Program-made: the position numbers and the translations under genes
NCBI GenBank assembly: GCA_026986575.1
Contig: JALSOH010000004.1
Location: 160,001 to 224,000 of the forward strand
Direction: 5' to 3'
Source: Thermoproteota archaeon
GTDB taxonomy: Archaea; Korarchaeota; Korarchaeia; Korarchaeales; Korarchaeaceae
Length of the DNA stretch: 64,000 nucleotides
In this document: one piece after another, positions 1 to 10,616 of the stretch
Position numbering within the stretch: the stretch's first letter is position 1
Layout of the letters: every line of letters starts with the position of its first letter
The notes under the pieces: model-generated
What the model was told of the DNA's origin: nothing
The model's database searches: none
Seen by the model: the letters and a program-made list of their open reading frames with translations, nothing else

Positions 1-83
1 TCAAAAATTCAGTCCCCTGTCTCACAACTCTCATTGACGTGATTTTGAATAAGTCCGGGCACTTAGCACCTATTAGATAGTCG

Positions 84-299
84 CTATGAGGAATCTCTCT
101 CCGCATTTCGGCCAATGCTGGGTCTCGCACCACCCTCCTCAACTCTCTTAGCTAGATCTATTAGCCTCCTTATTATATCATCGTAGGTTTCTCCCTTCCT
201 CCCAAGACTCTTGAGCATCTCTCTGGTCTCTTTTGATATCTGAATGGTCGTTAGATCTCTTCTAGATTTAGGCATCGTCGTTATGGGTAGTTTATGCAT
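84..299 (-). CDS. Small ribbon-helix-helix / antitoxin-like DNA-binding protein
   Basis: TTIQISKETREMLKSLGRKGETYDDIIRRLI matches the archaeal RHH antitoxin-like pattern; no cognate toxin in view. Confidence 0.7.
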   Translation of the reverse strand: MHKLPITTMPKSRRDLTTIQISKETREMLKSLGRKGETYDDIIRRLIDLAKRVEEGGARPSIGRNAERDSS

Positions 300-369
300 T
301 TTAAACTTAATTATGCATCACATATAATTGCACATAATAATTATATAATTCTACCTCCGAAATTATGGG

Positions 370-1441
370 GTGCACATGGTAAGCGAGAAAGTACGGAGTC
401 AGAAAGTTACTCCTAGGGGAAGACGCATCCCTCATGACCTCAGAATGGAACTCTACTTTTTAGTTAGAGAGCCCCGCGATAGAGGGATGAGTTATCGTGA
501 GATTCAGAGAATTGTGGAAAGGGAGCGCGGTATCAAAATAAGCAGGTCTCACATATCCTACTGGATTCACGGCCTTCATACCCCGCTAAACGAGCCCTAC
601 AATCATGTCGATACTTCCAAGAAGGGTGAGCTGGCTTGGATAGCAGGGATGTTCGTAGGGGATGGTTCCGTGAAGATCAACAGGAAGGGTCGCTTCTTGG
701 TGCTGAAAGTTAAGGATAGGGAGCTAGCGGAGGCTGCCGCTAATAAACTGGCAGTTGTTCTGGGAAAGGGAGAGAGGTACGCGGTAAACAGGATGGGGGA
801 CGGTAGGTACTACGTACAGGTCCAGTCGAGGGAACTAGTCGACCACTTGAGAGCGTGGGAGAACATTCTCTCGCATCTAGAGAGAAGCCCTAGAGAGTTC
901 ATTCAGGCACTCTTCGATTGTGAGGGCGGACCTATAGGACACGTTAGTGCATCTGGCAGGTTCTTCGCCAGAATAGATGTAGGTAATACCAATAGAGAGT
1001 TGCTCGAGGATGTATCCCTGAAGCTCTCTGACATGGGGATTCCAATCAACCGTTTCGATGCATTATCCCAAGGGAAAGGTTTTCGTAACTAGGAAGGGGA
1101 GATCCGTGGCTAGAAGAGACTGTTACTTCTTAAGGATATATCGGCAGGGGGGCATCATTAGGTACCGGGATGAGGTTGGATTTGTCACTTCAAGGAAGCA
1201 GGAGAAGCTAGAGGACATAGTTTACATCCTCTCTAATCTCGGATCTGGACGGGAAGCTGCCGTGGAGTGGATTAGGAGATACGAATACAAGAGAGGGATG
1301 GGCCGCCAGAGGTGGTTCAGGAGGGAGAGGTTCCTTGAATGGGAGGATGCTGTTAAGGAGTATGAGAGGTTCTTAGCCAGGAGATCGGCGATTAATCGTT
1401 ATTATAGGTCACAGCATTCCCCTCTTTCTGCAGGCCTCTAG
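370..1441 (+). pseudogene. HTH + two-motif LAGLIDADG homing endonuclease, split by a +1 frameshift near 1045
   Basis: N-terminal HTH (GMSYREIQRIVE...ISRSHISYW); motifs LAWIAGMFVGDG and FIQALFDCEG; removing one A at 1044/1045 joins ORF 370-1092 to ORF 1058-1441 (GIP-STVSMHYPKG). Confidence 0.8.
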
Positions 1442-1530
1442 CGCCTTTTCCCACCTGTCTCTCCTCCTGTAACTCTCGAGCTCCTCGAATACCCTCATTA
1501 GTAGCTCTCCTCTAAGACCGGAGCTCCTAT
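1410..1530 (-). pseudogene. Orphan 3' gene remnant (...GLRGELLMRVFEELESYRRRDRWEKALEACRKRGML*)
   Basis: Protein-like frame with host codon style and no start codon; family not identified. Confidence 0.3.
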
Positions 1531-1885
1531 CACGTCTGAAATCGGTTTAGATTCTTACCGTCTAAATAGGCTAGCTATCGTGGTTTCTTAACGCAATTCG
1601 TGGAGGCCTTGACCGGCTCCCCGGAACCCACCTCTACCCTCCGCGCGGGGTGTCCCTTCACTCACCTCAGTTATCTCTTATAGAGCACCAGGTATTCCTG
1701 CGCTGTGGTTTTCAAGCCTGAACTATCTTAGAGATACCGCACGGGATCCTAAGGAGGATTATGGCGTTTACACCCACGAATCCAAGCGATAATATGAGAC
1801 GGGATGCGAACTCTCCGTATTGTAAGCCGAGCCCCCTATTATCCTCTGGCGAACAGGAGAACGAGAAACGCATTTAATATAGGTG

Positions 1886-1953
1886 TGGCGGGCCCGCCGG
1901 GATTTGAACCCAGGACCTCCGGCTCCGAAGGCTGGCACTTAAATACCTCTGTC
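1886..1953 (-). repeat. att-like 3' half of tRNA-Arg(TCG), copy 1
   Basis: Minus strand reads CCAGC-CTTCGGA-GCCGG-AGGTC-CTGGGTTCAAATCCCGG-CGGGCCCG-CCA; no D-arm or 5' acceptor strand. Confidence 0.85.
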
Positions 1954-2214
1954 CTAGGGTTTGATAATAGACCAAGACAGGCAGTTACAATAAACATTCA
2001 TACTCATTACCTAGTACATGGGACAGCCAATCTGAGAGCTTAGCTTTGTTAATGCTATGGCTTCGGAGAGGTGATCAAAGGCAATCAATTATACTAATTA
2101 TAACTGTTAATGTCCCATTGAGAGAAATTATGTTATTAGGTTCTCATTGAAGCTTTATCATAAACACCGGATTATATTCATAGTAATATTTCATCCCTTT
2201 AGGGATAGGAGAAG

Positions 2215-2578
2215 CTAAGTGTAATGGGAAATCGCATTATATCATTTTCAACTTCATACGGTAGCCCAGTTTTCTACTGTTTGGAGAGTATATGTGCGAA
2301 ATCTGTGTCACGAGTGACTAGTTCTTCATCGCGGTTGATAGCTATAGCGGCCACTAGTAGGTCTGCAAATGCTTTTGCTTCCTCATCCTCAATTAGCTCA
2401 AGCTGTATTCTATGAGCTAGAATGAAATTGTCTCTGAGGGGAAATATTACTCCACCGTAGAAGCGCTCATAGAAAATGATCCTGGATACTCTACGAAGGT
2501 TACAGCCGTTATATCCTCTTGGATGGGCTTCTTCTCTCTAATCCTATCAATAACGATACCTGTATCCAGTATGGTCAA
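2215..2578 (-). pseudogene. vapC: VapC/PIN toxin pseudogene
   Basis: ILDTGIVID...VTFVEYP / frameshift / RIIFYE...FADLLVAAIAINRDEELVTRDTDF; TTG start overlaps the antitoxin stop; at least two frameshifts. Confidence 0.8.
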
Positions 2579-2787
2579 GACAGCCTCCCCTTCTCCCTGC
2601 GCCTCAGCTCCCCCACATCATAGACCTCTATGTCCTCAGTCAACTCCTCCGATCTAATACCAAGCATCTCCCTAACCTCAGCTACATCAACACGGCCACC
2701 AAGCCTCGCTAAAACGGCCTCTATGACCTCCTTCACCTCCTCCTCAGAGAGCCATGGGGGAATCCTCACTACCACACTCTTAGACAT
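2575..2787 (-). CDS. Putative VapB antitoxin
   Basis: 70-aa acidic ORF whose stop overlaps the PIN toxin start (TTGA). Confidence 0.7.
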   Translation of the reverse strand: MSKSVVVRIPPWLSEEEVKEVIEAVLARLGGRVDVAEVREMLGIRSEELTEDIEVYDVGELRRREKGRLS

Positions 2788-2875
2788 CCACGCATCCCCA
2801 AGACTGTATGAGGCCTAAGGAACCTATAATCCTGTTTCGACGATCTATAGCAGGTACCTCAGGGGTTTTAATCTA

Positions 2876-2942
2876 TGGCGGCCCGTCGGGACTTGAACCC
2901 GGGACCTCCGGCTCCGAAGGCTGGCACTTAAATACCTCTGTC
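2876..2942 (-). repeat. att-like 3' half of tRNA-Arg(TCG), copy 2
   Basis: 41 bp (2902-2942) identical to 1913-1953; tRNA T-arm and CCA visible on the minus strand. Confidence 0.85.
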
Positions 2943-3258
2943 TAACTAATTGATAGTAAGCGGGACAGATAGGTACAGTTTTATACTTATTATTCGGTGT
3001 ATAGGACAGTAGTCTAGAAATTTAGCGCTATTAAGAACATGTTTTGAGAGAATAGGGATAGTCTCCTATGGATATTAATGTCTTTAATGGATAATGGATA
3101 AAGAGGTGAGATCTAATATGCTTACATGTGATTAGTGAGCTGATAGAACCAATATATGAGGCTCTTGATTAAGAGAAAGTTAAGCCACTGGATGATACTG
3201 CCCCTATTCCGATTCTTCCCCCTGCGAGCTCCATAACTTTTCCTTGGCTCAAAAAAGA

Positions 3259-3597
3259 TTAGAGGGTTGAAGGGTCAACCTCAGCCATTGGATATACTCC
3301 TCCCAGGGGGAACTGGGCCTCGTTCAATATCCTCCTTATGGATTCCGCGTCCGGGGACTCCCAGCAGCAGTAAATCCTCTCGATTAAGCCTTCCTCTGTT
3401 AGTTGGACCCATGTGTTAATCAATCTGACCTCTTGGGTGGTGAGGTCCCTCACCTTCTTCCCCATAGCGGAGGCTACCTCAACGGATACCGGCTCAGCCA
3501 TATCGTGCACAGCCAAGAACTTTGGGACATCCACGCGCGATATCAAACGCCTTTCATCGGTAAATCCTCTAACGAATCCTTGGAGACAACTGTTCAT
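3259..3597 (-). CDS. DUF4242 / SCO4226-like small protein (true start probably near 3530)
   Basis: PKFLAVH...RIYCCWESPDAESIRR pattern. Confidence 0.6.
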   Translation of the reverse strand: MNSCLQGFVRGFTDERRLISRVDVPKFLAVHDMAEPVSVEVASAMGKKVRDLTTQEVRLINTWVQLTEEGLIERIYCCWESPDAESIRRILNEAQFPLGGVYPMAEVDPSTL

Positions 3598-3694
3598 GGT
3601 GGATCCTACCTAAAAACCATGCCGCAGAGTGAGCGATATCGGATGGGTCTCTTGCTCACTCTCCCTCCTTAATATGATCGAACCAAAGGGTGCC

Positions 3695-4294
3695 TTAGGG
3701 ATAGAGTGCGTGATTTTTTAATAACTGCTGGGCAGCAATCTTCGGATAATATATTCTCAGCACTATGTCCGTCAAAAGAAGCATGAGTATCATTGCTACG
3801 TCGTCCACCCTCTTCATCCCATATCTATGATTGAAAACACGATAGAAGTAGATGAAGGATAGAGTCGAGAAGGAAGTATCGATTAGCGCCTTGATTGATG
3901 AGTATAGCTCGATACTAGATGCTCCTATAATGGGAAGAAGCACTAGATCCGTTACTAGTGATATAGACGAAAAGAGGAAGTAAAAGGATACAACACTCAG
4001 TATTGGGGAGAGCGGACCCTTATACACGCTTCTATAAAACAAGAAGAGGTAAGTTAGTGCTCCCAGCAGGCCCCAAAGTAGGGCTCCGGTGAAGCTGCTT
4101 CCTAACAATACAAAATATGCGATAACATATGGGGGAATGGATTGATTGGCTACACCCAGCTCGTTCAAGACGATCATTAGGTACAAGGATTGAGTACCCG
4201 TGTAGAGCAAGTATAGGAGAAGGGGCCTTCTCCTATTGGATGGAGGGCTATTGTTAAGCAGATCCGGATTTTCTTCTCTTCTACATATGGCCAT
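3695..4294 (-). CDS. Yip1-like multi-pass membrane protein
   Basis: About 5 hydrophobic segments; last gene of the peptide/M48/SpoIIM operon. Confidence 0.5.
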   Translation of the reverse strand: MAICRREENPDLLNNSPPSNRRRPLLLYLLYTGTQSLYLMIVLNELGVANQSIPPYVIAYFVLLGSSFTGALLWGLLGALTYLFLFYRSVYKGPLSPILSVVSFYFLFSSISLVTDLVLLPIIGASSIELYSSIKALIDTSFSTLSFIYFYRVFNHRYGMKRVDDVAMILMLLLTDIVLRIYYPKIAAQQLLKNHALYP

Positions 4295-4841
4295 TTAACT
4301 TCACCAAGATGCAAGGTATTGAGAGATAATATTCTATAACTGATGATAATATTATCATAATTAAACTTAATAACGCCAATTTTGTTAAATAAACTAACTG
4401 ATCTCTGGAGAGGTCATAGTGATCCCCGCCATGGATGACCGTTACGGCGCTCGAAAGACCTACGGATGAGGAGATGAGGATAGAAGTGATCTCCAGCGGC
4501 CCGTGGAATAGAAAGCAGGGGAGTGCACCTGTCAAGTTTTCTCTGAGAATTTCCCTGACGATGCTACCTACCACCATGCCGTTGAAGCTAAGGGAGAGAG
4601 CCGTGAGCGTTCCAAGTGTCACATATCCTATGGAAAGAATCAGGATAACGGAACTGTTCAAGAGTATAAGTCCGCGTAAATCATAATGTCCATTAAAGGA
4701 ATGAGGAACGAAAACTCCACCTAACCCTTCTGTGTAAGATTGATCTGGGATCAGGAAACTTCCTAAGATCCCGGCCGCATAGAAAAGCGATGCTAAGATC
4801 AGTCCCTCACCCACCCTTGGGCCTTGTTTCGTCCCTACCAT
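4281..4841 (-). CDS. SpoIIM/DUF95 family membrane protein
   Basis: LNSSVILIL...FNGMVVG...LFHGPLEITSILISSSVGL...SSVIEYY matches the DUF95 signature (HGxxE, C-terminal A/SxIE). Confidence 0.8.
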   Translation of the reverse strand: MVGTKQGPRVGEGLILASLFYAAGILGSFLIPDQSYTEGLGGVFVPHSFNGHYDLRGLILLNSSVILILSIGYVTLGTLTALSLSFNGMVVGSIVREILRENLTGALPCFLFHGPLEITSILISSSVGLSSAVTVIHGGDHYDLSRDQLVYLTKLALLSLIMIILSSVIEYYLSIPCILVKLNGHM

Positions 4842-5778
4842 GGCTCATCCTCCTGATGATCTCTATTCTCTTCTCCAAGCTAGGATGCGTTGGAAGTAGG
4901 GAGGGGGTTTCCTTCATTCCATATATTTTGATCAGAGCGTTTATCAGATCCTCTGGATTTGAGTAAGATGCTGCAATGAGATCGGCCTTGACCTCCCTCC
5001 TCCTTATCAGGATTAAGAAGACCGACAACGCTGCCAAGAAGCCAGCCACCACTAGCAGGAAGATTACGGGATCGCGTTTCGTTACTGCCCCCGTTAGGGA
5101 GGAGGGTACTTCGCCTACAAGGAGTAGCATCGCGTACATCAGTAGTGTGTAGCCCAGATACCTGGCGATGTCTCCTTCTTTATAATGGGCGAGTTCGTGG
5201 GCCAGTACGCTCTTGATCTCTCCATTAGACAGCACCTTAAGCAGATCCTCATTTATGAAGACAGTCGGTTGAACGATCCCGCCAAGAAGCGCGGTTTTCA
5301 TTAGAGAGGATCTGAATAATCGGAGCCTTATATTCTTCCTGATCTCCATCTTTCCCTTAAGATCCTCGAAAACCCTCTTCAGATCGTCCGGGGGGTCTCT
5401 CCCCTGACCAATCTTATCGAAGATTATAGGAACCAGATTAACTGTGACGAACAGTACTACGAGAAGAGTGGAGAATTCCACTAGGATGCTGTGGTTGGGA
5501 AGTGAGGAGATCACAGCAGCGTAGATGAAGATCAAATATAAATCGAAATAATTGAGCAGGAGATCCTTGAATAATCTCCTGGCTCCCGGGCTTTCCTTAC
5601 GAAGAATGGGGTCTACAAGGGAGAGAATTATAGCAGCTAGTATCAAGATGAAAAATCCTGTGATAAGGGGGTTAAGCCTGTACTCCACCACGAGGATTAC
5701 GGTAAGAGACATCATAGCTACTGTTATGAGAGCCATCACTAAATTGTAAAGAGAAAAAAATGGAGAGTTAGTTCCCAA
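4807..5778 (-). CDS. M48 (HtpX/Ste24-like) membrane zinc metallopeptidase
   Basis: HELAH zinc motif, REVKAD third ligand, THPSLEKRI, several TM helices. Confidence 0.9.
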   Translation of the reverse strand: MGTNSPFFSLYNLVMALITVAMMSLTVILVVEYRLNPLITGFFILILAAIILSLVDPILRKESPGARRLFKDLLLNYFDLYLIFIYAAVISSLPNHSILVEFSTLLVVLFVTVNLVPIIFDKIGQGRDPPDDLKRVFEDLKGKMEIRKNIRLRLFRSSLMKTALLGGIVQPTVFINEDLLKVLSNGEIKSVLAHELAHYKEGDIARYLGYTLLMYAMLLLVGEVPSSLTGAVTKRDPVIFLLVVAGFLAALSVFLILIRRREVKADLIAASYSNPEDLINALIKIYGMKETPSLLPTHPSLEKRIEIIRRMSHGRDETRPKGG

Positions 5779-5788
5779 TGTAGATCCC

Positions 5789-6034
5789 TTATCCTATTAA
5801 AAAGCTCCCTACTGCTACAAGGGCGCCAGTGAGACCCGTAATTGGAGTACTGCATGCTGCTATTTTTGCTAGGGCTAAGAAATACCCTCCAAGTGCTACC
5901 GCAGCTGCTCCATAGTTACCTTTTGCAAGTAGATAGCCTATTCCCAACTGAGTGGCTGCAGGTGTTAATATAGGAACCACTAGTATTGCTATATTGAGGG
6001 CGAGGAGGGCTAGGGCTTTCTTTTCTGTCTTCAT
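5789..6034 (-). CDS. Putative circular bacteriocin / archaeocin precursor peptide
   Basis: 81 aa, Ala/Gly/Leu-rich and hydrophobic, no acidic residue after position 4; first gene of an operon with M48 and SpoIIM. Confidence 0.65.
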   Translation of the reverse strand: MKTEKKALALLALNIAILVVPILTPAATQLGIGYLLAKGNYGAAAVALGGYFLALAKIAACSTPITGLTGALVAVGSFLIG

Positions 6035-6079
6035 ACCATCGCCCCCGTTCTCCTAACTATTAGAGAATTATAGAATAAT

Positions 6080-6106
6080 GAGAATAATTATAAAAATCTT
6101 GCGCGA
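6080..6106 (-). promoter_or_regulatory. BRE/TATA promoter of the peptide operon
   Basis: Minus strand GCGCAAGA-TTTTTATAA about 55 bp upstream of ATG 6034. Confidence 0.5.
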
Positions 6107-6648
6107 AATCTACTCTTTTTTTCACTAAAAAAAGAAAAACTGAAAAATTTGAAGATAACGGCGTCCTTGAGGTAGAATCGTCTACCTAGATTCCCACGGA
6201 GCAGATATGCATAAATTATACTAAGCAAAGAGGTTATATTTTATAGAGGCTTTGAGGAAGACTCTTATATAGCATTTAAGCTAAAGTTATTGTCAGTCCA
6301 GCGGGAGAAGTTTATGCTGACTTTTGATCACAATTAATTAGTTCGGTTTAGACCCTTCTTACCGGACTCGATCTCTATCCTCACCCCCTCAATAGTTAGA
6401 TCGATGTCTGTCCTTCTATTCACACTCAGTCCAAGTTTTTCGAGTTAGGATGACCATCTCCTCGATCATCAACATGTGAAGACGGATCTTTGAATTGGAT
6501 GGGGGCTTACAATATACAAGATTCTTTCCATGATAGTCAATGGGTTCAGCCTTAACTAACTAGCGCGAGATCTGGAGAACAAAGCCAGTATCTTAGGAGG
6601 AGGCTCTACCATGCCGGCATGTTTGATTGGATTACATAGAGTGGGTGG

Positions 6649-6843
6649 TCAGCATTCCCCCTCTGATAACCTCCTTCTTTTCCTCCTTGGAGAGTGTTTC
6701 AAGGTATAACTCTGCTGCTTCCTGACATTCCTAATCGCCTCATCTAGGCTATCGCCCTGTGTATGGCATCTCGGGAGTTCCCGGACGATCGCGACGTAGC
6801 CTCCGCCTTCATCCTCTAGTGTAATAACACTAAACTCACGCAT
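6649..6843 (-). pseudogene. hicB: HicB-family antitoxin with a frameshift
   Basis: EDEGGGYVAIVRELPRCHTQGDSLDEAIRNVR; the expected EAAELYLE continues in another frame near 6720. Confidence 0.75.
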
Positions 6844-7217
6844 ACTCCTGTCCATTTAATAACCCCCTTAAAGTAAACAGTAATTACCTCTCCAAGACGG
6901 CCCTAGGGGCTAACTTCTAATAAAGTTATATAATGCTTACGTGTTTTCCTGCTCTCGCGCGATTTATTTAAAGATAAGCGTCTCTACAGTAGAATTGTTT
7001 ATCTAGATACGCGTGAAATAAAATATGCTTAGATTGCATCAAGTGGGGGGAAGGATCACTGAGGACTCTTATGGAAAATTTAAGCTAGATCATTGCCGCC
7101 AAGCTAGCAGGAGAAGTTTTATTATTTAGAATTTCTCATTGATCACGAATCGCGCACTGCATTAGTTCAAACTTATATCTGAGACTACTTTTTAATCCTT
7201 CTAACCGTCATCTACCG

Positions 7218-7700
7218 ATGGCCGAGATCCCAAGTAGACCATCCCTCTTCAAGGCTGAGTGTGGCTTCATATTGGTCGCTGGGCTGCTTCCCAGCGATAA
7301 GCTGCCTCTATCAGCCCTACCCGACAGAATAGCCCTAGTCCCCGTCGAGTTAGTGGCTTCCCTGAGGCATATAGTCATGGCAGCTTTCAGAGCATGCAGG
7401 GCCCTTAACACGGGAAGGAATGTGGCCGAAGCATTCGCCTACGAGCTGGGAGCGTGCCTCACGGGTATGAGAGAGGTATCTAAGGTAAGAAAAGCCCTCT
7501 CATCTTTAGGCCCCAAGGTGTTCGTCTCCATCTGCGAGGATGTGGGTGACTGTCTGGGACCGTTGATGGCCATGTTGGCTTGGGGTTCTCGCCTCACCGA
7601 CGTCGAGCCCAGATACAAGCCGGACGACCTGCCCTCCTGTTCCGGCAATGTTGAGGCCCTGGCGATGGAAGAAGGCGCCATGTTGGAGCTGGATCGGTGA
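7218..7700 (+). CDS. cgi121: KEOPS subunit Cgi121
   Basis: VASLRHIVMAAFRA...NVA...EL...LTGMREVSK and C-terminal AMEEGAMLEL. Confidence 0.7.
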   Translation: MAEIPSRPSLFKAECGFILVAGLLPSDKLPLSALPDRIALVPVELVASLRHIVMAAFRACRALNTGRNVAEAFAYELGACLTGMREVSKVRKALSSLGPKVFVSICEDVGDCLGPLMAMLAWGSRLTDVEPRYKPDDLPSCSGNVEALAMEEGAMLELDR

Positions 7701-7781
7701 GGTGGAGTGATGCGAAAGCGGAGGGAAGGGAGAGAGGGGAATGGGATACCTTTTAAAGAGTAGTAGTTAGAAGCGGAGGAG

Positions 7782-8108
7782 ATGGAGATGTCTTCCGAGG
7801 ATTTCCTGCAGGCTAAGGCGGAGGAGCTGCTCAACGAGCTGAATCAGGTGGTCACCCAGATATCCACTCTGAAGGCTGAGCTCGCCTCGGTGGAGGAAGC
7901 GCTCAAGAGGTTGGAGAAGCTGAGCGATGTGGAGGAGGTCTTCGAGAGGATCGGGGTGGTCTACGTCAAGAGGGATAGGGAGTCCGTGATAGTCGAGTTG
8001 AAGGCCACCAAGGAGGCCCTCGAGACCACCATAGGATCGCTGGAGAAGAGGGAGAAGGACCTCAGAGAGACCTTGAACAGGATGTTGCAGCCCTCCCAAG
8101 GTGGTTAA
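7782..8108 (+). CDS. pfdB: Prefoldin beta subunit
   Basis: Coiled coils flanking EVFERIGVVYVKRDRE. Confidence 0.85.
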   Translation: MEMSSEDFLQAKAEELLNELNQVVTQISTLKAELASVEEALKRLEKLSDVEEVFERIGVVYVKRDRESVIVELKATKEALETTIGSLEKREKDLRETLNRMLQPSQGG

Positions 8109-8207
8109 GCCCTAGACCGATCTGAAAGGGAGGGTAGCGCTTTCCAACTTTCATTATTTCACCTCCCCTCAGATCCCTGATAGATGCAGGTTTTAGCTGA
8201 GATGTAT

Positions 8208-9554
8208 TCACTCGAAGTATTTGAGAAGTGTCGATTCGAAAGCCTTCTTCCCTTCCCTAGGTATCTGGGCTCCAGCGGCCATCTGATGACCGCCACCTGT
8301 CCCACCGGCCTCCTTAGATGCCGTCCTGATGAGCTCGTCGAGGTCTATCCGCTTGGAGCTTCCCTTCCCAGTCAGCCTAGCTGACACCTTTATCATGCCC
8401 TCATCGGTATGCGCGTACCCCACTACTATGTCCGCTTCTCTAAGGGATTTGCTGAGTATCGACGTGACCGTGCCTATCATGGTGTCCTCGGCCAAGCCCT
8501 CATCTATGAAAGCCACTCTGCCTACTATTCTGGGCCTGGCGCTCCTCAGTACTTGGGCGAGAACCCTCTTGTAGGACTGTTGCAGCTCTAGCGCTTTCCT
8601 CAGGACCTCTCCTCTTAGGCCGGAAGCTAGCAGGGCTCCCACATGACCGCCCCCCATTCGCCCGCAGGCGTTGAGTATCGTGGCGAAGCTGCCCAGATCC
8701 CTGAGAGGGGAACCCTTGGGCTCCTTCAGATATATGTAGACGTTTCCCACCAAAGATTTAGCTTTCTCTAAGCTCTCCATCCTCTTGACCAGCTCGTTGG
8801 TCAGGTCCCTCTTCTGCTCCTCCGACAGGTCAGAGAGGGTGATCCACCTCTCCCCCACCTTTATGGGTATCCCCAAGGACTCAACGAGTGCCAACGCCCC
8901 GGCTGAGTTGTTGGACACTCCCTCTATGAAGGGATCCACCGTCCTCTCCAGCGATGCTACCAAGGGGTAATCCGGACCTCCAAAGAGCCTGAGGTCCGGC
9001 ATGACCTCTACCAATCCTGATTCCACGGCCAGCTTCAGTATCTCGGCGTTGAGGCCCCGGAAACCATCGTTCTCCTGGACGTCGCCCAGCGCCCCGGTTA
9101 TGGCCATCGGGGCCATGTCGGGATCATCCAGCATCTCGTAATACAGCAGGAAGGCCACCCCAGCACCGCTGATCTCCCTGTCTCCGTCTATCCCGGCAAG
9201 GAACGGATTGAGGATCCTCGCCTTTCCAACATCCCCCTCCGGGCGGTGATGGTCCACTATGAAGATCTTCTTCCCCAGTGAGGATATGATTTGGAGGTCG
9301 CCGGAACCCAGATCTGAGAATAGATATACCTCGTAGGGCTCTCTCCTCAGTTCCTCCACGAGAGACTCGCTGACGTACTTGACGATCGTCAGGTGGAAGG
9401 GGACGTTCAGCCTTCTGAGGAGGGAGATCAATATACCTGCTGAACTCAGGCCATCGGCATCGAGGTGGCTTATCAACCTTACCGTACCCTCAAAGGAGTT
9501 GTATAGGTCCCGGGCGAAGGACCTGACGTGATCCCGGAACCGGCCTAGGTCCAA
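8208..9554 (-). CDS. RecJ/Cdc45-like DHH phosphoesterase
   Basis: SHLDADG, DLGSG, VDHH, DHHA1 GGGH motifs; conserved position after rps15. Confidence 0.9.
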   Translation of the reverse strand: MDLGRFRDHVRSFARDLYNSFEGTVRLISHLDADGLSSAGILISLLRRLNVPFHLTIVKYVSESLVEELRREPYEVYLFSDLGSGDLQIISSLGKKIFIVDHHRPEGDVGKARILNPFLAGIDGDREISGAGVAFLLYYEMLDDPDMAPMAITGALGDVQENDGFRGLNAEILKLAVESGLVEVMPDLRLFGGPDYPLVASLERTVDPFIEGVSNNSAGALALVESLGIPIKVGERWITLSDLSEEQKRDLTNELVKRMESLEKAKSLVGNVYIYLKEPKGSPLRDLGSFATILNACGRMGGGHVGALLASGLRGEVLRKALELQQSYKRVLAQVLRSARPRIVGRVAFIDEGLAEDTMIGTVTSILSKSLREADIVVGYAHTDEGMIKVSARLTGKGSSKRIDLDELIRTASKEAGGTGGGHQMAAGAQIPREGKKAFESTLLKYFE

Positions 9555-9565
9555 GGGAACCCCTT

Positions 9566-10021
9566 CTATGACGCGTAGAGCTCGGCCAGCTCGGGACTGT
9601 AGCGCCAGTCCGGTGGGAGCTTACCCACCCTCTTGTAGTACTTGACCAGCCTGCTTATCTTGGACTCCGTGAGTATGAGACCCCTCTTGGCGTGGAAGTC
9701 CTTCCTATGCTCCTCTAGATGCTTCCTGATCTTGTATGCCTTGCTTATCAGCGCCAGTAGATCCTCGGGTATGGGCGGCGCTGCATCGTGCTCCTCCAGT
9801 ATCTGGGTTATCTTCTTACCGACGACCCTCTTCACTAGAGGTACTCCGTACTCGTCCCTAAGTATCATGCCTATCTGGCTGGGGGAGACTCCTCTCTTGC
9901 CAAGCTTAACCACCAGCTCCTCTATCTCCTCCTTGGACAGGGGGACCCAGTCTAGGGGGGTCTCTCTGGGGGGCCTAGTCGACTCGGACTTGCCCTTCTT
10001 CCTGCTGTGCATCCTAGCCAT
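9566..10021 (-). CDS. rps15: 30S ribosomal protein S15 (uS15)
   Basis: [14 protein letters not shown]...[12 protein letters not shown]...[12 protein letters not shown]. Confidence 0.97.
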
Positions 10022-10025
10022 TTGT

Positions 10026-10616
10026 TCACCCTTCAGCTCCCCATGACCCAAGCTCGTTTTTAAACAATTGCGCCCCCCTCGCCCGAAGGAAACGCCGGAG
10101 TTCCCTCACCGCTGCTCCCCTATGCGAGAATACGTCCTTCTCTTCTCCCAGCTCACCGAAGGTCCTGCCTCCTGATCCCTCGGGAATGAAAATGGGGTCA
10201 AAACCCCAGCCCCCTCCCCTAGGTTCGGTGGATATCCGGCCCCTCGACCTGCCCACGAAGGTCAGTAGCTCCCTCCCCGTGTGTAGCGCTATGACTGAGA
10301 TGAACTCCGCTTCCCTATCATCGATACCGGACATTAGTTTTAGCAGGCCCTCATTTCCCAGCTTCGAGAACACGTAAGAGGAGAACGGCCCTGGGAAGCC
10401 CCCCAGCGAGTGTATGAACAGACCGGCGTCCTCCAAGAAGAAGGGCTTAGGCAGGTGGTCTGCCAGCCACAGGGCCGAAGTGAGCGCCACTTCCTCGAGA
10501 TCGTCGCTCTGCGGTTCGAGATATTCTATTTGGATCCATTGGACCTTCACTATGTCGGAGAGCATCCTCCTGAACTCCTCATACTTGTGCCTGTTAGAGG
10601 ACGCCAGATAGATCAT
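10026..10616 (-). CDS. rdgB: Non-canonical purine NTP pyrophosphatase (RdgB/HAM1)
   Basis: [28 protein letters not shown] motifs. Confidence 0.95.

What the first reader, a model, noticed from the sequence alone, without database searches (positions are those of the whole stretch)
3695..6110. Candidate archaeal circular-bacteriocin (archaeocin) operon: peptide + M48 peptidase + SpoIIM/DUF95 + Yip1-like
Seen: four tightly coupled or overlapping co-oriented genes with lower GC than the core genes. The first encodes an 81-aa Ala/Gly-rich hydrophobic peptide (MKTEKK leader, ending ...GSFLIG); an intact HExxH M48 protease, a DUF95 protein and a multi-TM protein follow. Known: head-to-tail circular bacteriocin loci (AS-48, circularin A, uberolysin types) characteristically encode DUF95/SpoIIM and Yip1-type membrane proteins, and some encode M48 peptidases. 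Inference: M48 removes the leader, and DUF95/Yip1 cyclise, export or protect against a membrane-active peptide. The operon is intact while neighbouring accessory genes are decayed, which suggests selection. No ABC ATPase is in the locus, so export may be ATPase-independent or supplied in trans.
Basis: partly seen in the sequence, partly recalled or inferred. Interest (0 to 1): 0.88.

Follow-up and report, generated by a model that had tools for sequence, protein, structure and literature searches.

The report
Archaeal circular-bacteriocin-like peptide operon
A hydrothermal-vent archaeon carries a small accessory operon (a short hydrophobic peptide, a membrane zinc protease and two membrane helper proteins) whose gene set resembles the bacterial clusters that make ring-shaped antimicrobial peptides, a kind of system not yet shown in archaea, though no product has been seen.

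Summary
Four tightly packed minus-strand genes lie at 3695-6034: an 81-aa hydrophobic peptide of no known family, an M48 protease with intact HELAH, a stand-alone SpoIIM/DUF95 protein, and a 199-aa multi-pass membrane protein. All are under purifying selection and sit on low-GC DNA.

The circular-bacteriocin reading is partly supported:
- A 2025 preprint describes bacterial altitudin S clusters with precursor, adjacent M48, SpoIIM and YIP1, which is the same set plus an ABC transporter.
- A protein-language-model search places the peptide nearest three circular-bacteriocin clusters.
- The genome has three more stand-alone SpoIIM modules, each headed by an 86-100-aa peptide with a signal-like head. 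One, about 12 kb upstream, carries the missing ABC ATPase.
- The phylum's usual SpoIIM is a different RDD-SpoIIM fusion.

Against it:
- No HMM match to any bacteriocin family.
- Low-confidence three-helix models with no structural match.
- No ATPase in the operon.
- The "Yip1" label fails the HMM and profile tests.
- M48 relatives also occur without an adjacent SpoIIM.
- The peptide family has only four known sequences.
- No expression or product data exist.

I put about 0.5 on a bacteriocin-type maturation operon and about 0.3 on true cyclisation.

The parts
6035..6100 (-). AT-rich upstream region with TATA-like stretches and a GGAG-type purine run just before the ATG. Probable promoter and 5' leader of the operon.
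   Evidence: Read directly from the sequence. Not tested: the promoter tool models bacterial sigma-70 sites and was not used.
5789..6034 (-). Gene for an 81-aa hydrophobic Gly/Ala-rich peptide (peptide A), the candidate precursor. It has a basic N-terminus (MKTEKK), one strongly hydrophobic segment with prolines, then a conserved core that ends exactly at an invariant Gly.
   Evidence: ORF. No Pfam or NCBIfam family at E<=1. Only 4 distinct family members were found, by a word-index search of 5.8 billion proteins and a profile search of 1.84 billion representatives. dN/dS 0.11. ESM Atlas nearest clusters are cyclic bacteriocin families (0.92 with 189 shared features, 0.90 with 174, 0.83). GRAVY 1.21, net charge +4.
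4807..5778 (-). Membrane M48 zinc metalloprotease (323 aa) with HELAH at residues 194-198. Candidate leader peptidase.
   Evidence: PF01435 3.1e-22 and PF05569 1.7e-09. The HtpX and BlaR1 NCBIfam models all score far below their cut-offs. Catalytic residues are invariant in 4 of 4 homologues. This subfamily is present in 5 of 43 genomes of the phylum, all in one genus.
4281..4841 (-). Stand-alone SpoIIM/DUF95 membrane protein (186 aa). Its start overlaps the M48 gene by 35 nt.
   Evidence: PF01944 9.6e-13. Orthologues at 95% identity (G020) and 64% (G003). It differs from the phylum's usual 474-577-aa copy, shown for one example to be an RDD-SpoIIM fusion.
3695..4294 (-). 199-aa multi-pass membrane protein of no HMM family, overlapping the SpoIIM gene by 14 nt. 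The Yip1 likeness is a lead only.
   Evidence: No Pfam, NCBIfam, PHROGs or PADLOC family. The word-index search found 4 proteins including the window's own, and the G020 copy makes a fifth. ESM Atlas features score 0.92 to a cluster in which 39% of members carry Yip1, and structure TM is 0.66/0.64 to a Yip1-domain cluster. The Yip1 HMM finds two other genes in this genome but not this one at E<=10. hhalign against those two gives probability 0.55%.
1..7200 (.). Low-GC (0.453) accessory stretch that holds the operon. It starts about 90 nt after a tRNA gene and an RNase P RNA gene, and also holds tRNA-like fragments, a split LAGLIDADG gene and antitoxin-like remnants.
   Evidence: GC. Neighbour families. 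Repeats. tRNA and RNase P RNA just upstream of the window. The same position is occupied in G020.

Best explanation
This is an accessory operon of the circular-bacteriocin type, closest in gene content to the altitudin S kind. Proposed mechanism follows, with each step marked as shown or inferred. (1) Shown: four co-transcribable genes, all constrained by selection, encode a small hydrophobic peptide, a membrane M48 protease with an intact zinc site, a stand-alone SpoIIM/DUF95 protein and a further multi-pass membrane protein. (2) Inferred: the 81-aa peptide is a precursor. Its basic and hydrophobic N-terminal part is a leader, either about 28 residues up to the Pro-rich TPAAT stretch or only MKTEKK. 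The leader anchors the peptide in the membrane and is removed by the adjacent M48 protease. (3) Inferred by analogy with bacterial clusters, where DUF95 is class-defining but mechanistically unsolved: SpoIIM together with the 199-aa partner handles the core, giving head-to-tail ligation and/or release, and probably protects the producer. (4) Inferred: the product is a very hydrophobic, weakly cationic membrane-active peptide used against competitors in the vent community. Export may use the ABC ATPase and permeases of the sister module about 12 kb upstream, or may need no ATPase.
For: Gene content matches a proven bacterial system. Altitudin S clusters hold a precursor, an M48 gene adjacent to it, SpoIIM, YIP1 and an ABC transporter, and the product was shown by mass spectrometry to be cyclised (passages). 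M48 or M50 genes also occur in a few other mined clusters. The peptide's nearest ESM Atlas clusters are three different cyclic-bacteriocin clusters (0.92 with 189 shared features for the PF12173 cluster, 0.90 with 174 for PF09221, 0.83 for CclA_1). The architecture recurs: all 4 stand-alone SpoIIM genes of this genome (modules A, B, E, F) lie in an operon headed by an 81-100-aa peptide with one strongly hydrophobic N-terminal segment and a less hydrophobic 52-70-aa core. Module B adds an ABC ATPase (PF00005 1.6e-30) and two permease-like proteins, and the G003 copy keeps peptide, SpoIIM and permeases together in a different order. In another genus, SpoIIM is followed by an Rce1-like/CPBP protease. 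Stand-alone copies are accessory: 37 of 43 phylum genomes have SpoIIM, but only 6 have more than one copy, and the common copy lies in a 474-577-aa frame (an RDD-SpoIIM fusion in the one I scanned). Peptide A occurs in 2 of 21 genus genomes. In peptides A and B the C-terminus ends at exactly the same invariant Gly in every homologue. dN/dS is 0.11-0.24.
Against: There is no match at E<=1 to any Pfam or NCBIfam family, which would include the circular-bacteriocin models such as PF12173, PF09221 and PF16942, and no PDB sequence match at E<=10. The AlphaFold2 models are low-confidence (pLDDT 69 and 62), show three helices, and give no Foldseek match at E<=0.001. Every described cluster has an ATP-binding gene and this operon has none. 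Core GRAVY is 1.22-1.49, above the 0.5-1.1 quoted for subgroup I, which would also suit a resident membrane protein. M48 homologues of the same subfamily occur with no SpoIIM nearby in G007 and none downstream in G019. The Yip1 identity fails the HMM and hhalign tests. The peptides of the different modules are not detectably related to each other, except F and C. The language-model score of 0.92 is reached by 4-10% of shuffled proteins according to the tool's own note.
Confidence: 0.5

Rival explanations
1. A resident membrane complex. The 81-aa product is an ordinary three-helix integral membrane subunit that stays in the membrane with SpoIIM and the 199-aa protein. The M48 enzyme is an HtpX-like quality-control protease. 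Nothing is secreted or cyclised.
For: AlphaFold2 predicts three helices spanning the whole peptide. GRAVY is 1.21 for the whole peptide and 1.49 for residues 7-81, with small-residue-rich helices. The best NCBIfam similarities of the M48 protein are to HtpX models. M48 homologues occur without an adjacent SpoIIM gene. No bacteriocin HMM hit.
Against: All HtpX and BlaR1 models score far below their cut-offs. The genes are accessory and patchy: peptide A is in 2 of 21 genus genomes and this M48 subfamily in 5 of 43 phylum genomes. They lie on low-GC DNA with mobile-element debris. The same peptide-first layout recurs with unrelated peptides, once with an ABC exporter. The language-model neighbours are cyclic bacteriocins.
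Confidence: 0.22
2. A linear exported peptide. The N-terminal segment is a Sec-type or class III (prepilin-like) signal. The core is released as a linear hydrophobic peptide (toxin, signal or surface or pilin-like subunit). M48 trims it, and SpoIIM and the partner serve in export or immunity. No head-to-tail bond is made.
For: All five peptides examined (A, B, E, F and C) have one hydrophobicity peak of 2.3-2.7 near the N-terminus, followed by a Pro-containing polar stretch and a less hydrophobic core. In peptide B the leader diverges more than the core. The KKA-LAL start of peptide A resembles my recalled consensus for archaeal prepilin-peptidase sites; this is recall and was not tested.
Against: Stand-alone DUF95 next to a small precursor is, in the literature I read, tied specifically to cyclised peptides. 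The sister peptides lack a Lys/Arg-Gly/Ala prepilin-like site. The exact, invariant C-terminal end fits a ligation substrate, though it does not prove one.
Confidence: 0.15
3. An orphan immunity or resistance module. The small peptide and the membrane proteins protect the cell against a neighbour's membrane-active peptide (for instance the product of module B), and the operon makes no toxin of its own.
For: As I recall, not from a call, circular bacteriocin clusters carry small hydrophobic immunity proteins. YIP1 proteins travel with the accessory ABC transporter genes of such clusters. This operon has no ATPase. A fuller module lies in the neighbouring low-GC stretch.
Against: The peptide gene sits first, next to a protease, as the structural gene does in altitudin S clusters. 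Its language-model neighbours are precursors, not immunity proteins. In G003 module A stands next to module C rather than module B.
Confidence: 0.08

Closest known systems
Altitudin S-type circular bacteriocin gene clusters of Bacillales (bioRxiv 10.1101/2025.10.31.685828; passages read)
   Same: The precursor gene lies directly next to an M48-family metallopeptidase gene, together with SpoIIM/DUF95 and a further multi-pass membrane protein (YIP1 there, Yip1-like at best here). The authors likewise suggest that M48 processes the precursor.
   Different: This one is archaeal. There is no ABC transporter in the operon. The precursor is 81 aa rather than 132 aa (56-aa leader plus 76-aa core). The peptide is very hydrophobic and weakly cationic (GRAVY 1.2-1.5, +2 core), against pI 10.3-11 and charge +7 to +13 with low hydrophobicity. 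No sequence of that system was available to me, so homology of the peptide or the M48 protein was not tested.
Subgroup II circular bacteriocins (gassericin A / acidocin B kind, Pfam PF12173)
   Same: The best ESM Atlas neighbour is a cluster in which 44% of members carry PF12173 (0.92, 189 shared features). The quoted leader of 22-35 residues and core of about 58 residues with variable charge fit a 28 + 53 split of peptide A.
   Different: Pfam and NCBIfam returned no family at all for the peptide at E<=1, so no PF12173 match. There is no structural match. Those clusters carry an ATP-binding gene.
HtpX-type M48 membrane proteases
   Same: M48 domain with HExxH and a downstream Glu, flanked by membrane helices.
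   Different: Scores are 21-41 bits against cut-offs of 245-422 for the HtpX equivalogs. The gene is patchy, genus-restricted and sits in accessory operons.
RDD-SpoIIM fusion protein, the usual SpoIIM copy of this phylum
   Same: The same Pfam domain, PF01944.
   Different: The usual copy lies in a 474-577-aa open frame, present once in almost every genome, and the one scanned (G012) has an N-terminal RDD domain. The operon's copy is a stand-alone 186-aa protein found in 3 of 41 searched genomes.
DUF95/arCOG01996 genes of archaeal 'dark matter islands' (Makarova et al. 2014, PMC4158269, Table 1 passage)
   Same: A stand-alone DUF95 membrane protein enriched in variable archaeal islands.
   Different: The passage I saw lists it only as an uncharacterised membrane protein, with no link to a precursor peptide or protease.

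Membership tests
Circular (head-to-tail cyclised) bacteriocin gene cluster | DUF95/SpoIIM gene in the cluster | tested here: met
   PF01944 9.6e-13, above the cut-off. Described as class-defining in PMC13289728 and PMC8534725.
Circular (head-to-tail cyclised) bacteriocin gene cluster | Small precursor gene (leader of 2-56 aa plus core of 58-76 aa) in the cluster | tested here: inconclusive
   An 81-aa peptide gene heads the operon. A 6 + 75 or 28 + 53 split is possible, but no cleavage site is established.
Circular (head-to-tail cyclised) bacteriocin gene cluster | ATP-binding (ABC) protein gene in the cluster | tested here: not met
   None among the four genes. The nearest is in sister module B, about 12 kb upstream at G000:C4:150944-151591. 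Xin et al. state that all reported clusters have one.
Circular (head-to-tail cyclised) bacteriocin gene cluster | Precursor belongs to a known circular-bacteriocin sequence family (PF12173, PF09221, PF16942, TIGR03651) | tested here: not met
   No family at E<=1 in Pfam or NCBIfam. There is only a language-model likeness.
Circular (head-to-tail cyclised) bacteriocin gene cluster | Compact 4-5-helix (saposin-like) fold of the core | tested here: inconclusive
   The AlphaFold2 models have pLDDT 69 (full length) and 62 (residues 29-81) and show three helices. Foldseek against the PDB gives nothing at E<=0.001. The alignment has only 4 rows.
Circular (head-to-tail cyclised) bacteriocin gene cluster | Peptide bond between the first and last residue of the core; antimicrobial activity | not testable with these tools
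   Needs mass spectrometry and bioassays.
Altitudin S-like subgroup | M48 metallopeptidase gene adjacent to the structural gene | tested here: met
   A 10-nt gap separates the peptide stop from the M48 start. PF01435 3.1e-22. The hallmark is described.
Altitudin S-like subgroup | YIP1 family membrane protein | tested here: not met
   The Yip1 HMM misses the 199-aa protein at E<=10 while finding two other genes in the genome. hhalign probability is 0.55%. Only an ESM Atlas lead remains.
Altitudin S-like subgroup | Long leader (56 aa) and a large, highly cationic, weakly hydrophobic core | tested here: not met
   The precursor is 81 aa, the core charge is +2 and GRAVY is 1.22-1.49, against the values.
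HtpX (M48B) housekeeping protease | Score above the NCBIfam HtpX equivalog cut-offs | tested here: not met
   The best HtpX score is 40.3 bits against a cut-off of 285.

The most novel reading that the evidence does not exclude
The operon is the first archaeal system for head-to-tail cyclised peptides, and a minimal one: four genes with no ATPase. The adjacent M48 protease would be the long-sought leader peptidase, or even the transpeptidase. SpoIIM plus one partner protein would be enough for ligation and release. This vent archaeon and its relatives would carry a diversifying arsenal of four to six such SpoIIM modules per genome, with interchangeable membrane proteases (M48, Rce1-like/CPBP) and unrelated core peptides.
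Probability: 0.2. Interest if true: 0.85.

Novelty: new variant of a known kind. Interest (0 to 1): 0.62.

Why it matters
How circular bacteriocins lose their leader and are ligated is described in the papers I read as a long-standing open question, and no responsible enzyme is known. A compact thermophile operon in which the precursor sits directly beside a membrane M48 protease, SpoIIM and one partner protein, with no transporter genes in between, would be a simple system for reconstituting those steps. The mining studies I read found such clusters only in Firmicutes, Actinobacteria and Thermotogae, and my three library searches found no report of an archaeal one. If the product is real, it would add a new class to the short list of archaeal antimicrobial peptides. 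It would also give a function to the stand-alone DUF95 genes that are enriched in archaeal variable islands.

Tried and rejected
- Complex prediction of peptide A with the M48 protease: the verdict was 'no answer' (score 0.01, mark 0.32). It counts neither way.
- Sequencing runs: no RNA holder is listed and 4 DNA holders are, so I did not lay reads.
- PDB sequence searches with the peptide A profile and with peptide B: nothing relevant.
- Foldseek of both peptide models: nothing at E<=0.001.
- PHROGs and PADLOC: only weak M48-type hits in PHROGs and none in PADLOC, so I dropped a phage or defence-system identity.
- The genome-contig scan with the 199-aa protein found only the two congeneric MAGs. 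Its two search patterns were narrow.
- Re-running the 199-aa profile at E<=10 added nothing, so I could not build a Yip1 bridge alignment.
- hhalign of peptide A against peptides E and B: not significant. BLASTP between modules for SpoIIM and the partner proteins: not significant.
- I considered a CAAX-type substrate for M48 and rejected it, because the only Cys (C61) is 20 residues from the C-terminus.
- I considered an ATP-synthase c-subunit-like proteolipid and rejected it, because the helices hold no acidic residue.
- The paper most likely to bear on novelty, Makarova et al. 2019 in mBio on archaeal antimicrobial peptides, is not held. Supplementary files were not consulted.
Full report
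**What is there**

One search shows four co-oriented ORFs on the minus strand:
- 5789-6034: 81 aa, begins MKTEKK and ends GSFLIG.
- 4807-5778: 323 aa, TTG start.
- 4281-4841: 186 aa.
- 3695-4294: 199 aa.

They are separated by a 10-nt gap, then a 35-nt overlap, then a 14-nt overlap. An AT-rich stretch with TATA-like runs lies 30-65 nt upstream of the first ATG (read). The plus strand holds only short ORFs of 42-83 aa.

Pfam results:
- The 323-aa protein matches Peptidase_M48 (3.1e-22), with a weaker BlaR1/M56 match.
- The 186-aa protein matches SpoIIM PF01944 (9.6e-13).
- The peptide matches nothing at E<=1, and the 199-aa protein gives only noise.

NCBIfam gives only far-sub-threshold HtpX and BlaR1 similarities for the protease. 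HELAH (residues 194-198) and E262 are invariant in 4 of 4 homologues. Operon GC is 0.451, against 0.527 for the rest of the window.

**Are the genes real and selected?**

The window is G000:C4:160001-224000. A congeneric genome, G020, has the same four genes in the same order at the same chromosomal position, with protein identities of 89-95% (89% M48, 93% peptide, 95% SpoIIM and the 199-aa protein). A third genome, G003, has M48 (cut by the contig end), SpoIIM (64%) and the 199-aa protein (54%).

Between G000 and G020, dN/dS is 0.11 for the peptide (19 synonymous and 7 non-synonymous differences), 0.24 for M48, 0.22 for SpoIIM and 0.15 for the 199-aa protein. Neighbouring core genes give 0.01-0.19.

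The peptide family is tiny. A word-index search of 5.8 billion proteins found the window's own protein plus one other. A profile search that read 1.84 billion representatives found two. With G020 that makes four distinct sequences at 59-93% identity to the window's, and all end at the same invariant Gly. The 199-aa protein has five known members.

**Setting**

- The operon lies in a low-GC stretch (window 1-7200, GC 0.453). This stretch begins about 90 nt after a tRNA gene and an RNase P RNA gene.
- A second low-GC stretch lies upstream of those RNA genes, between them and the 16S-23S rRNA operon.
- The window stretch also holds two 79-nt tRNA-3'-half-like direct repeats.
- A LAGLIDADG gene is split here but intact in G020.
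- There are antitoxin-like remnants.
- Peptide A was found in 2 of 21 genomes of the genus.
- This M48 subfamily was found in 5 of 43 genomes of the phylum, all in the genus.
- In G003 the operon sits in a different neighbourhood.

It is therefore an accessory, probably mobile, cassette. PHROGs and PADLOC give no phage or defence identity.

**The wider pattern**

This pattern was the most informative result. Pfam SpoIIM is present in 37 of 43 genomes of the phylum. Almost all have one copy, inside a 474-577-aa open frame. The example I scanned is an RDD-SpoIIM fusion. Only 6 genomes have more than one copy: G000 has 5, G003 has 6, G020 has 3, and G019, G047 and G049 have 2 each.

G000's four stand-alone copies each sit in an operon headed by a small peptide:
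- **Module A:** the finding itself.
- **Module B** (G000:C4:149471-152974), about 200 nt after the 23S rRNA gene. It has a 100-aa peptide, then SpoIIM (1.4e-15) starting on a GTGA overlap with the peptide's stop codon, a 197-aa membrane protein, an ABC ATPase (PF00005 1.6e-30) and two permease-like proteins.
- **Module E** (C6:405061-406435): a 94-aa peptide, a 136-aa membrane protein and SpoIIM (1.1e-17).
- **Module F** (C1:32242-33989): an 86-aa peptide, a 105-aa membrane protein, SpoIIM (1.3e-17) and a 235-aa membrane protein.

Related modules in other genomes:
- G003 carries a relative of module F directly downstream of its module A.
- G003 also has module D: three small membrane proteins, then SpoIIM (1.7e-17), then an M48 that is 56% identical to the window's.
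- G003 has a rearranged module B in which the permeases precede the peptide and SpoIIM.
- In another genus, G047 has a 99-aa peptide, then SpoIIM, then an Rce1-like/CPBP protease.

All five peptides I profiled (A, B, E, F and G003's C) share one layout. Each has a basic N-terminus, one strongly hydrophobic segment (15-residue hydropathy peak of 2.3-2.7) containing Pro, a short polar stretch, and then a less hydrophobic 52-70-aa core rich in Gly, Ala and aromatic residues. In the peptide B family the head diverges more than the core, and the C-terminus is conserved to the last residue.

The peptides of different modules are not detectably related, except F and C (E = 5e-6). The SpoIIM and partner proteins of different modules are also not similar in pairwise comparison.

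I ran no chance control for the peptide-first pattern.

**Comparison with what is known**

From passages I read:
- SpoIIM/DUF95 is treated as the class-defining gene of circular bacteriocin clusters (PMC13289728).
[quoted passage not shown] No leader peptidase is known. Clusters were found in Firmicutes, Actinobacteria and Thermotogae (PMC8534725).
- YIP1 genes are common in these clusters, and a few clusters carry M48 or M50 peptidase genes (PMC8659200).
- A 2025 preprint shows by mass spectrometry that altitudin S is cyclised. Its cluster, and those of all its homologues, have an M48 gene adjacent to the structural gene, plus SpoIIM, YIP1 and an ABC transporter.

Module A therefore reproduces that hallmark set apart from the transporter, and module B supplies the canonical precursor + DUF95 + ATPase trio. 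Independently of context, the ESM Atlas feature search puts peptide A nearest a class IIc cyclic bacteriocin cluster (0.92, 189 shared features). A circularin A/uberolysin cluster follows at 0.90 and a CclA-type cluster at 0.83. By the tool's own calibration this is a lead, not proof.

**What does not fit**

- The peptide hits no bacteriocin HMM and no PDB sequence.
- AlphaFold2 gives three helices at pLDDT 69 for the full length, and 62 for residues 29-81. Neither model finds a structural neighbour. With four rows in the alignment, this is inconclusive rather than negative.
- The operon has no ATPase.
- The core is more hydrophobic (GRAVY 1.22-1.49) than the range quoted for subgroup I.
- M48 homologues occur with no SpoIIM nearby in G007 and with none downstream in G019.
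- The fourth protein is not a demonstrable Yip1. The Pfam model finds two other genes in this genome but not this one at E<=10. A profile comparison with those two gives probability 0.55%. Only the ESM Atlas supports the label, with a 0.92 feature score to a cluster that is 39% Yip1 and structure TM of 0.66/0.64 to a Yip1 cluster.

**Mechanism and odds**

I consider it most likely (about 0.5) that module A is a peptide-maturation operon of the circular-bacteriocin kind:
- The peptide is a precursor held in the membrane by its N-terminal segment.
- The adjacent M48 protease removes the leader.
- SpoIIM and its partner mature or release the core and shield the producer.
- Export is either ATPase-independent or borrows module B's transporter.

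On the leader, comparison with the sister peptides favours a signal-like leader of about 28 residues and a 53-residue core, which fits the subgroup II proportions quoted. From recalled HtpX topology, which I did not test, the M48 active site probably faces the cytoplasm. That would fit cutting after MKTEKK better. I cannot decide between the two. True head-to-tail ligation I put at about 0.3.

The rivals are a resident membrane complex (0.22), a linear exported peptide (0.15) and an orphan immunity module (0.08).

**Novelty**

My library searches listed no paper that reports an archaeal circular bacteriocin cluster. A 2014 survey lists DUF95 (arCOG01996) among the families enriched in archaeal "dark matter islands", but only as an uncharacterised membrane protein. 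The 2019 mBio survey of archaeal antimicrobial systems is not held, and supplements were closed, so an earlier mention cannot be excluded. I rate this a new variant of a known kind. It is interesting mainly as a compact, thermophilic, possibly ATPase-free version that could make the unsolved leader-cleavage and ligation steps testable.

Noticed in passing
L017:6472-9974 (= G000:C4:149471-152974, about 12 kb upstream of the finding, outside the window): Sister module B begins about 200 nt after the 23S rRNA gene. It has a 100-aa Trp-rich cationic peptide ending FTVG, SpoIIM on a GTGA stop/start overlap, a 197-aa membrane protein, an ABC ATPase and two permease-like proteins. This is the canonical precursor + DUF95 + ATPase trio. 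It is conserved in G020 and rearranged in G003.
   Followed up: partly
L068:3062-4436 (G000:C6:405061-406435) and L069:1243-2990 (G000:C1:32242-33989): Two further stand-alone SpoIIM modules (E and F) are headed by 94-aa and 86-aa peptides with signal-like heads. Peptide E ends with a Gly/Ala-rich tail that looks like peptide A's but is not significantly similar to it.
   Followed up: partly
L027:5395-8051 (G003:C18) and L014:9179-13220 (G003:C57): G003 has an M48 paralogue (56% identical to the window's) downstream of another SpoIIM and three small membrane proteins (module D). It also has modules A and C in tandem. G003 has 6 SpoIIM matches in all.
   Followed up: partly
L065:4032-5891 (G047:C21, another genus): A 99-aa peptide is followed by SpoIIM and an Rce1-like/CPBP protease (PF02517 2.2e-10). 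On the opposite strand lies a 164-aa membrane protein with an HELAH motif that matched no Pfam family. Two large secreted-looking proteins with Gly-rich tails lie upstream.
   Followed up: partly
window 1891-1969 and 2880-2958: A 79-nt direct repeat (87% identical) contains a tRNA T-arm and acceptor-like 3' half on the minus strand. ARAGORN and Rfam call no whole tRNA there. These may be attachment-site remnants of successive integrations.
   Followed up: partly
window 370-1441 (+): A LAGLIDADG-type gene with an HTH is split into 240-aa and 127-aa ORFs here, but is one intact 366-aa ORF in G020 (L013:2858-3958).
   Followed up: partly
window 84-299, 2447-2787, 6649-6855 (all -): Small antitoxin-like ORFs (DUF7557/VapB-like, and a HicB-like ORF that is shorter than its G020 counterparts) and a 43-aa ORF that I read by eye as a PIN-like fragment (no Pfam hit). 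This looks like toxin-antitoxin debris typical of variable islands.
   Followed up: no
window 3695-10051 versus L013: Synonymous divergence between G000 and G020 is lower for SpoIIM and the 199-aa gene (dS 0.11-0.14) than for flanking core genes (0.38-0.68). This hints that part of the cassette was exchanged between the two lineages more recently than they split.
   Followed up: no
L017:12952-14246 (-): A 265-aa protein with a very Cys-rich C-terminal third is followed by a 171-aa membrane protein. Neither has a significant Pfam family (the 171-aa protein's best hit is E 0.095). They lie in the low-GC stretch between module B and the RNase P RNA gene.
   Followed up: no
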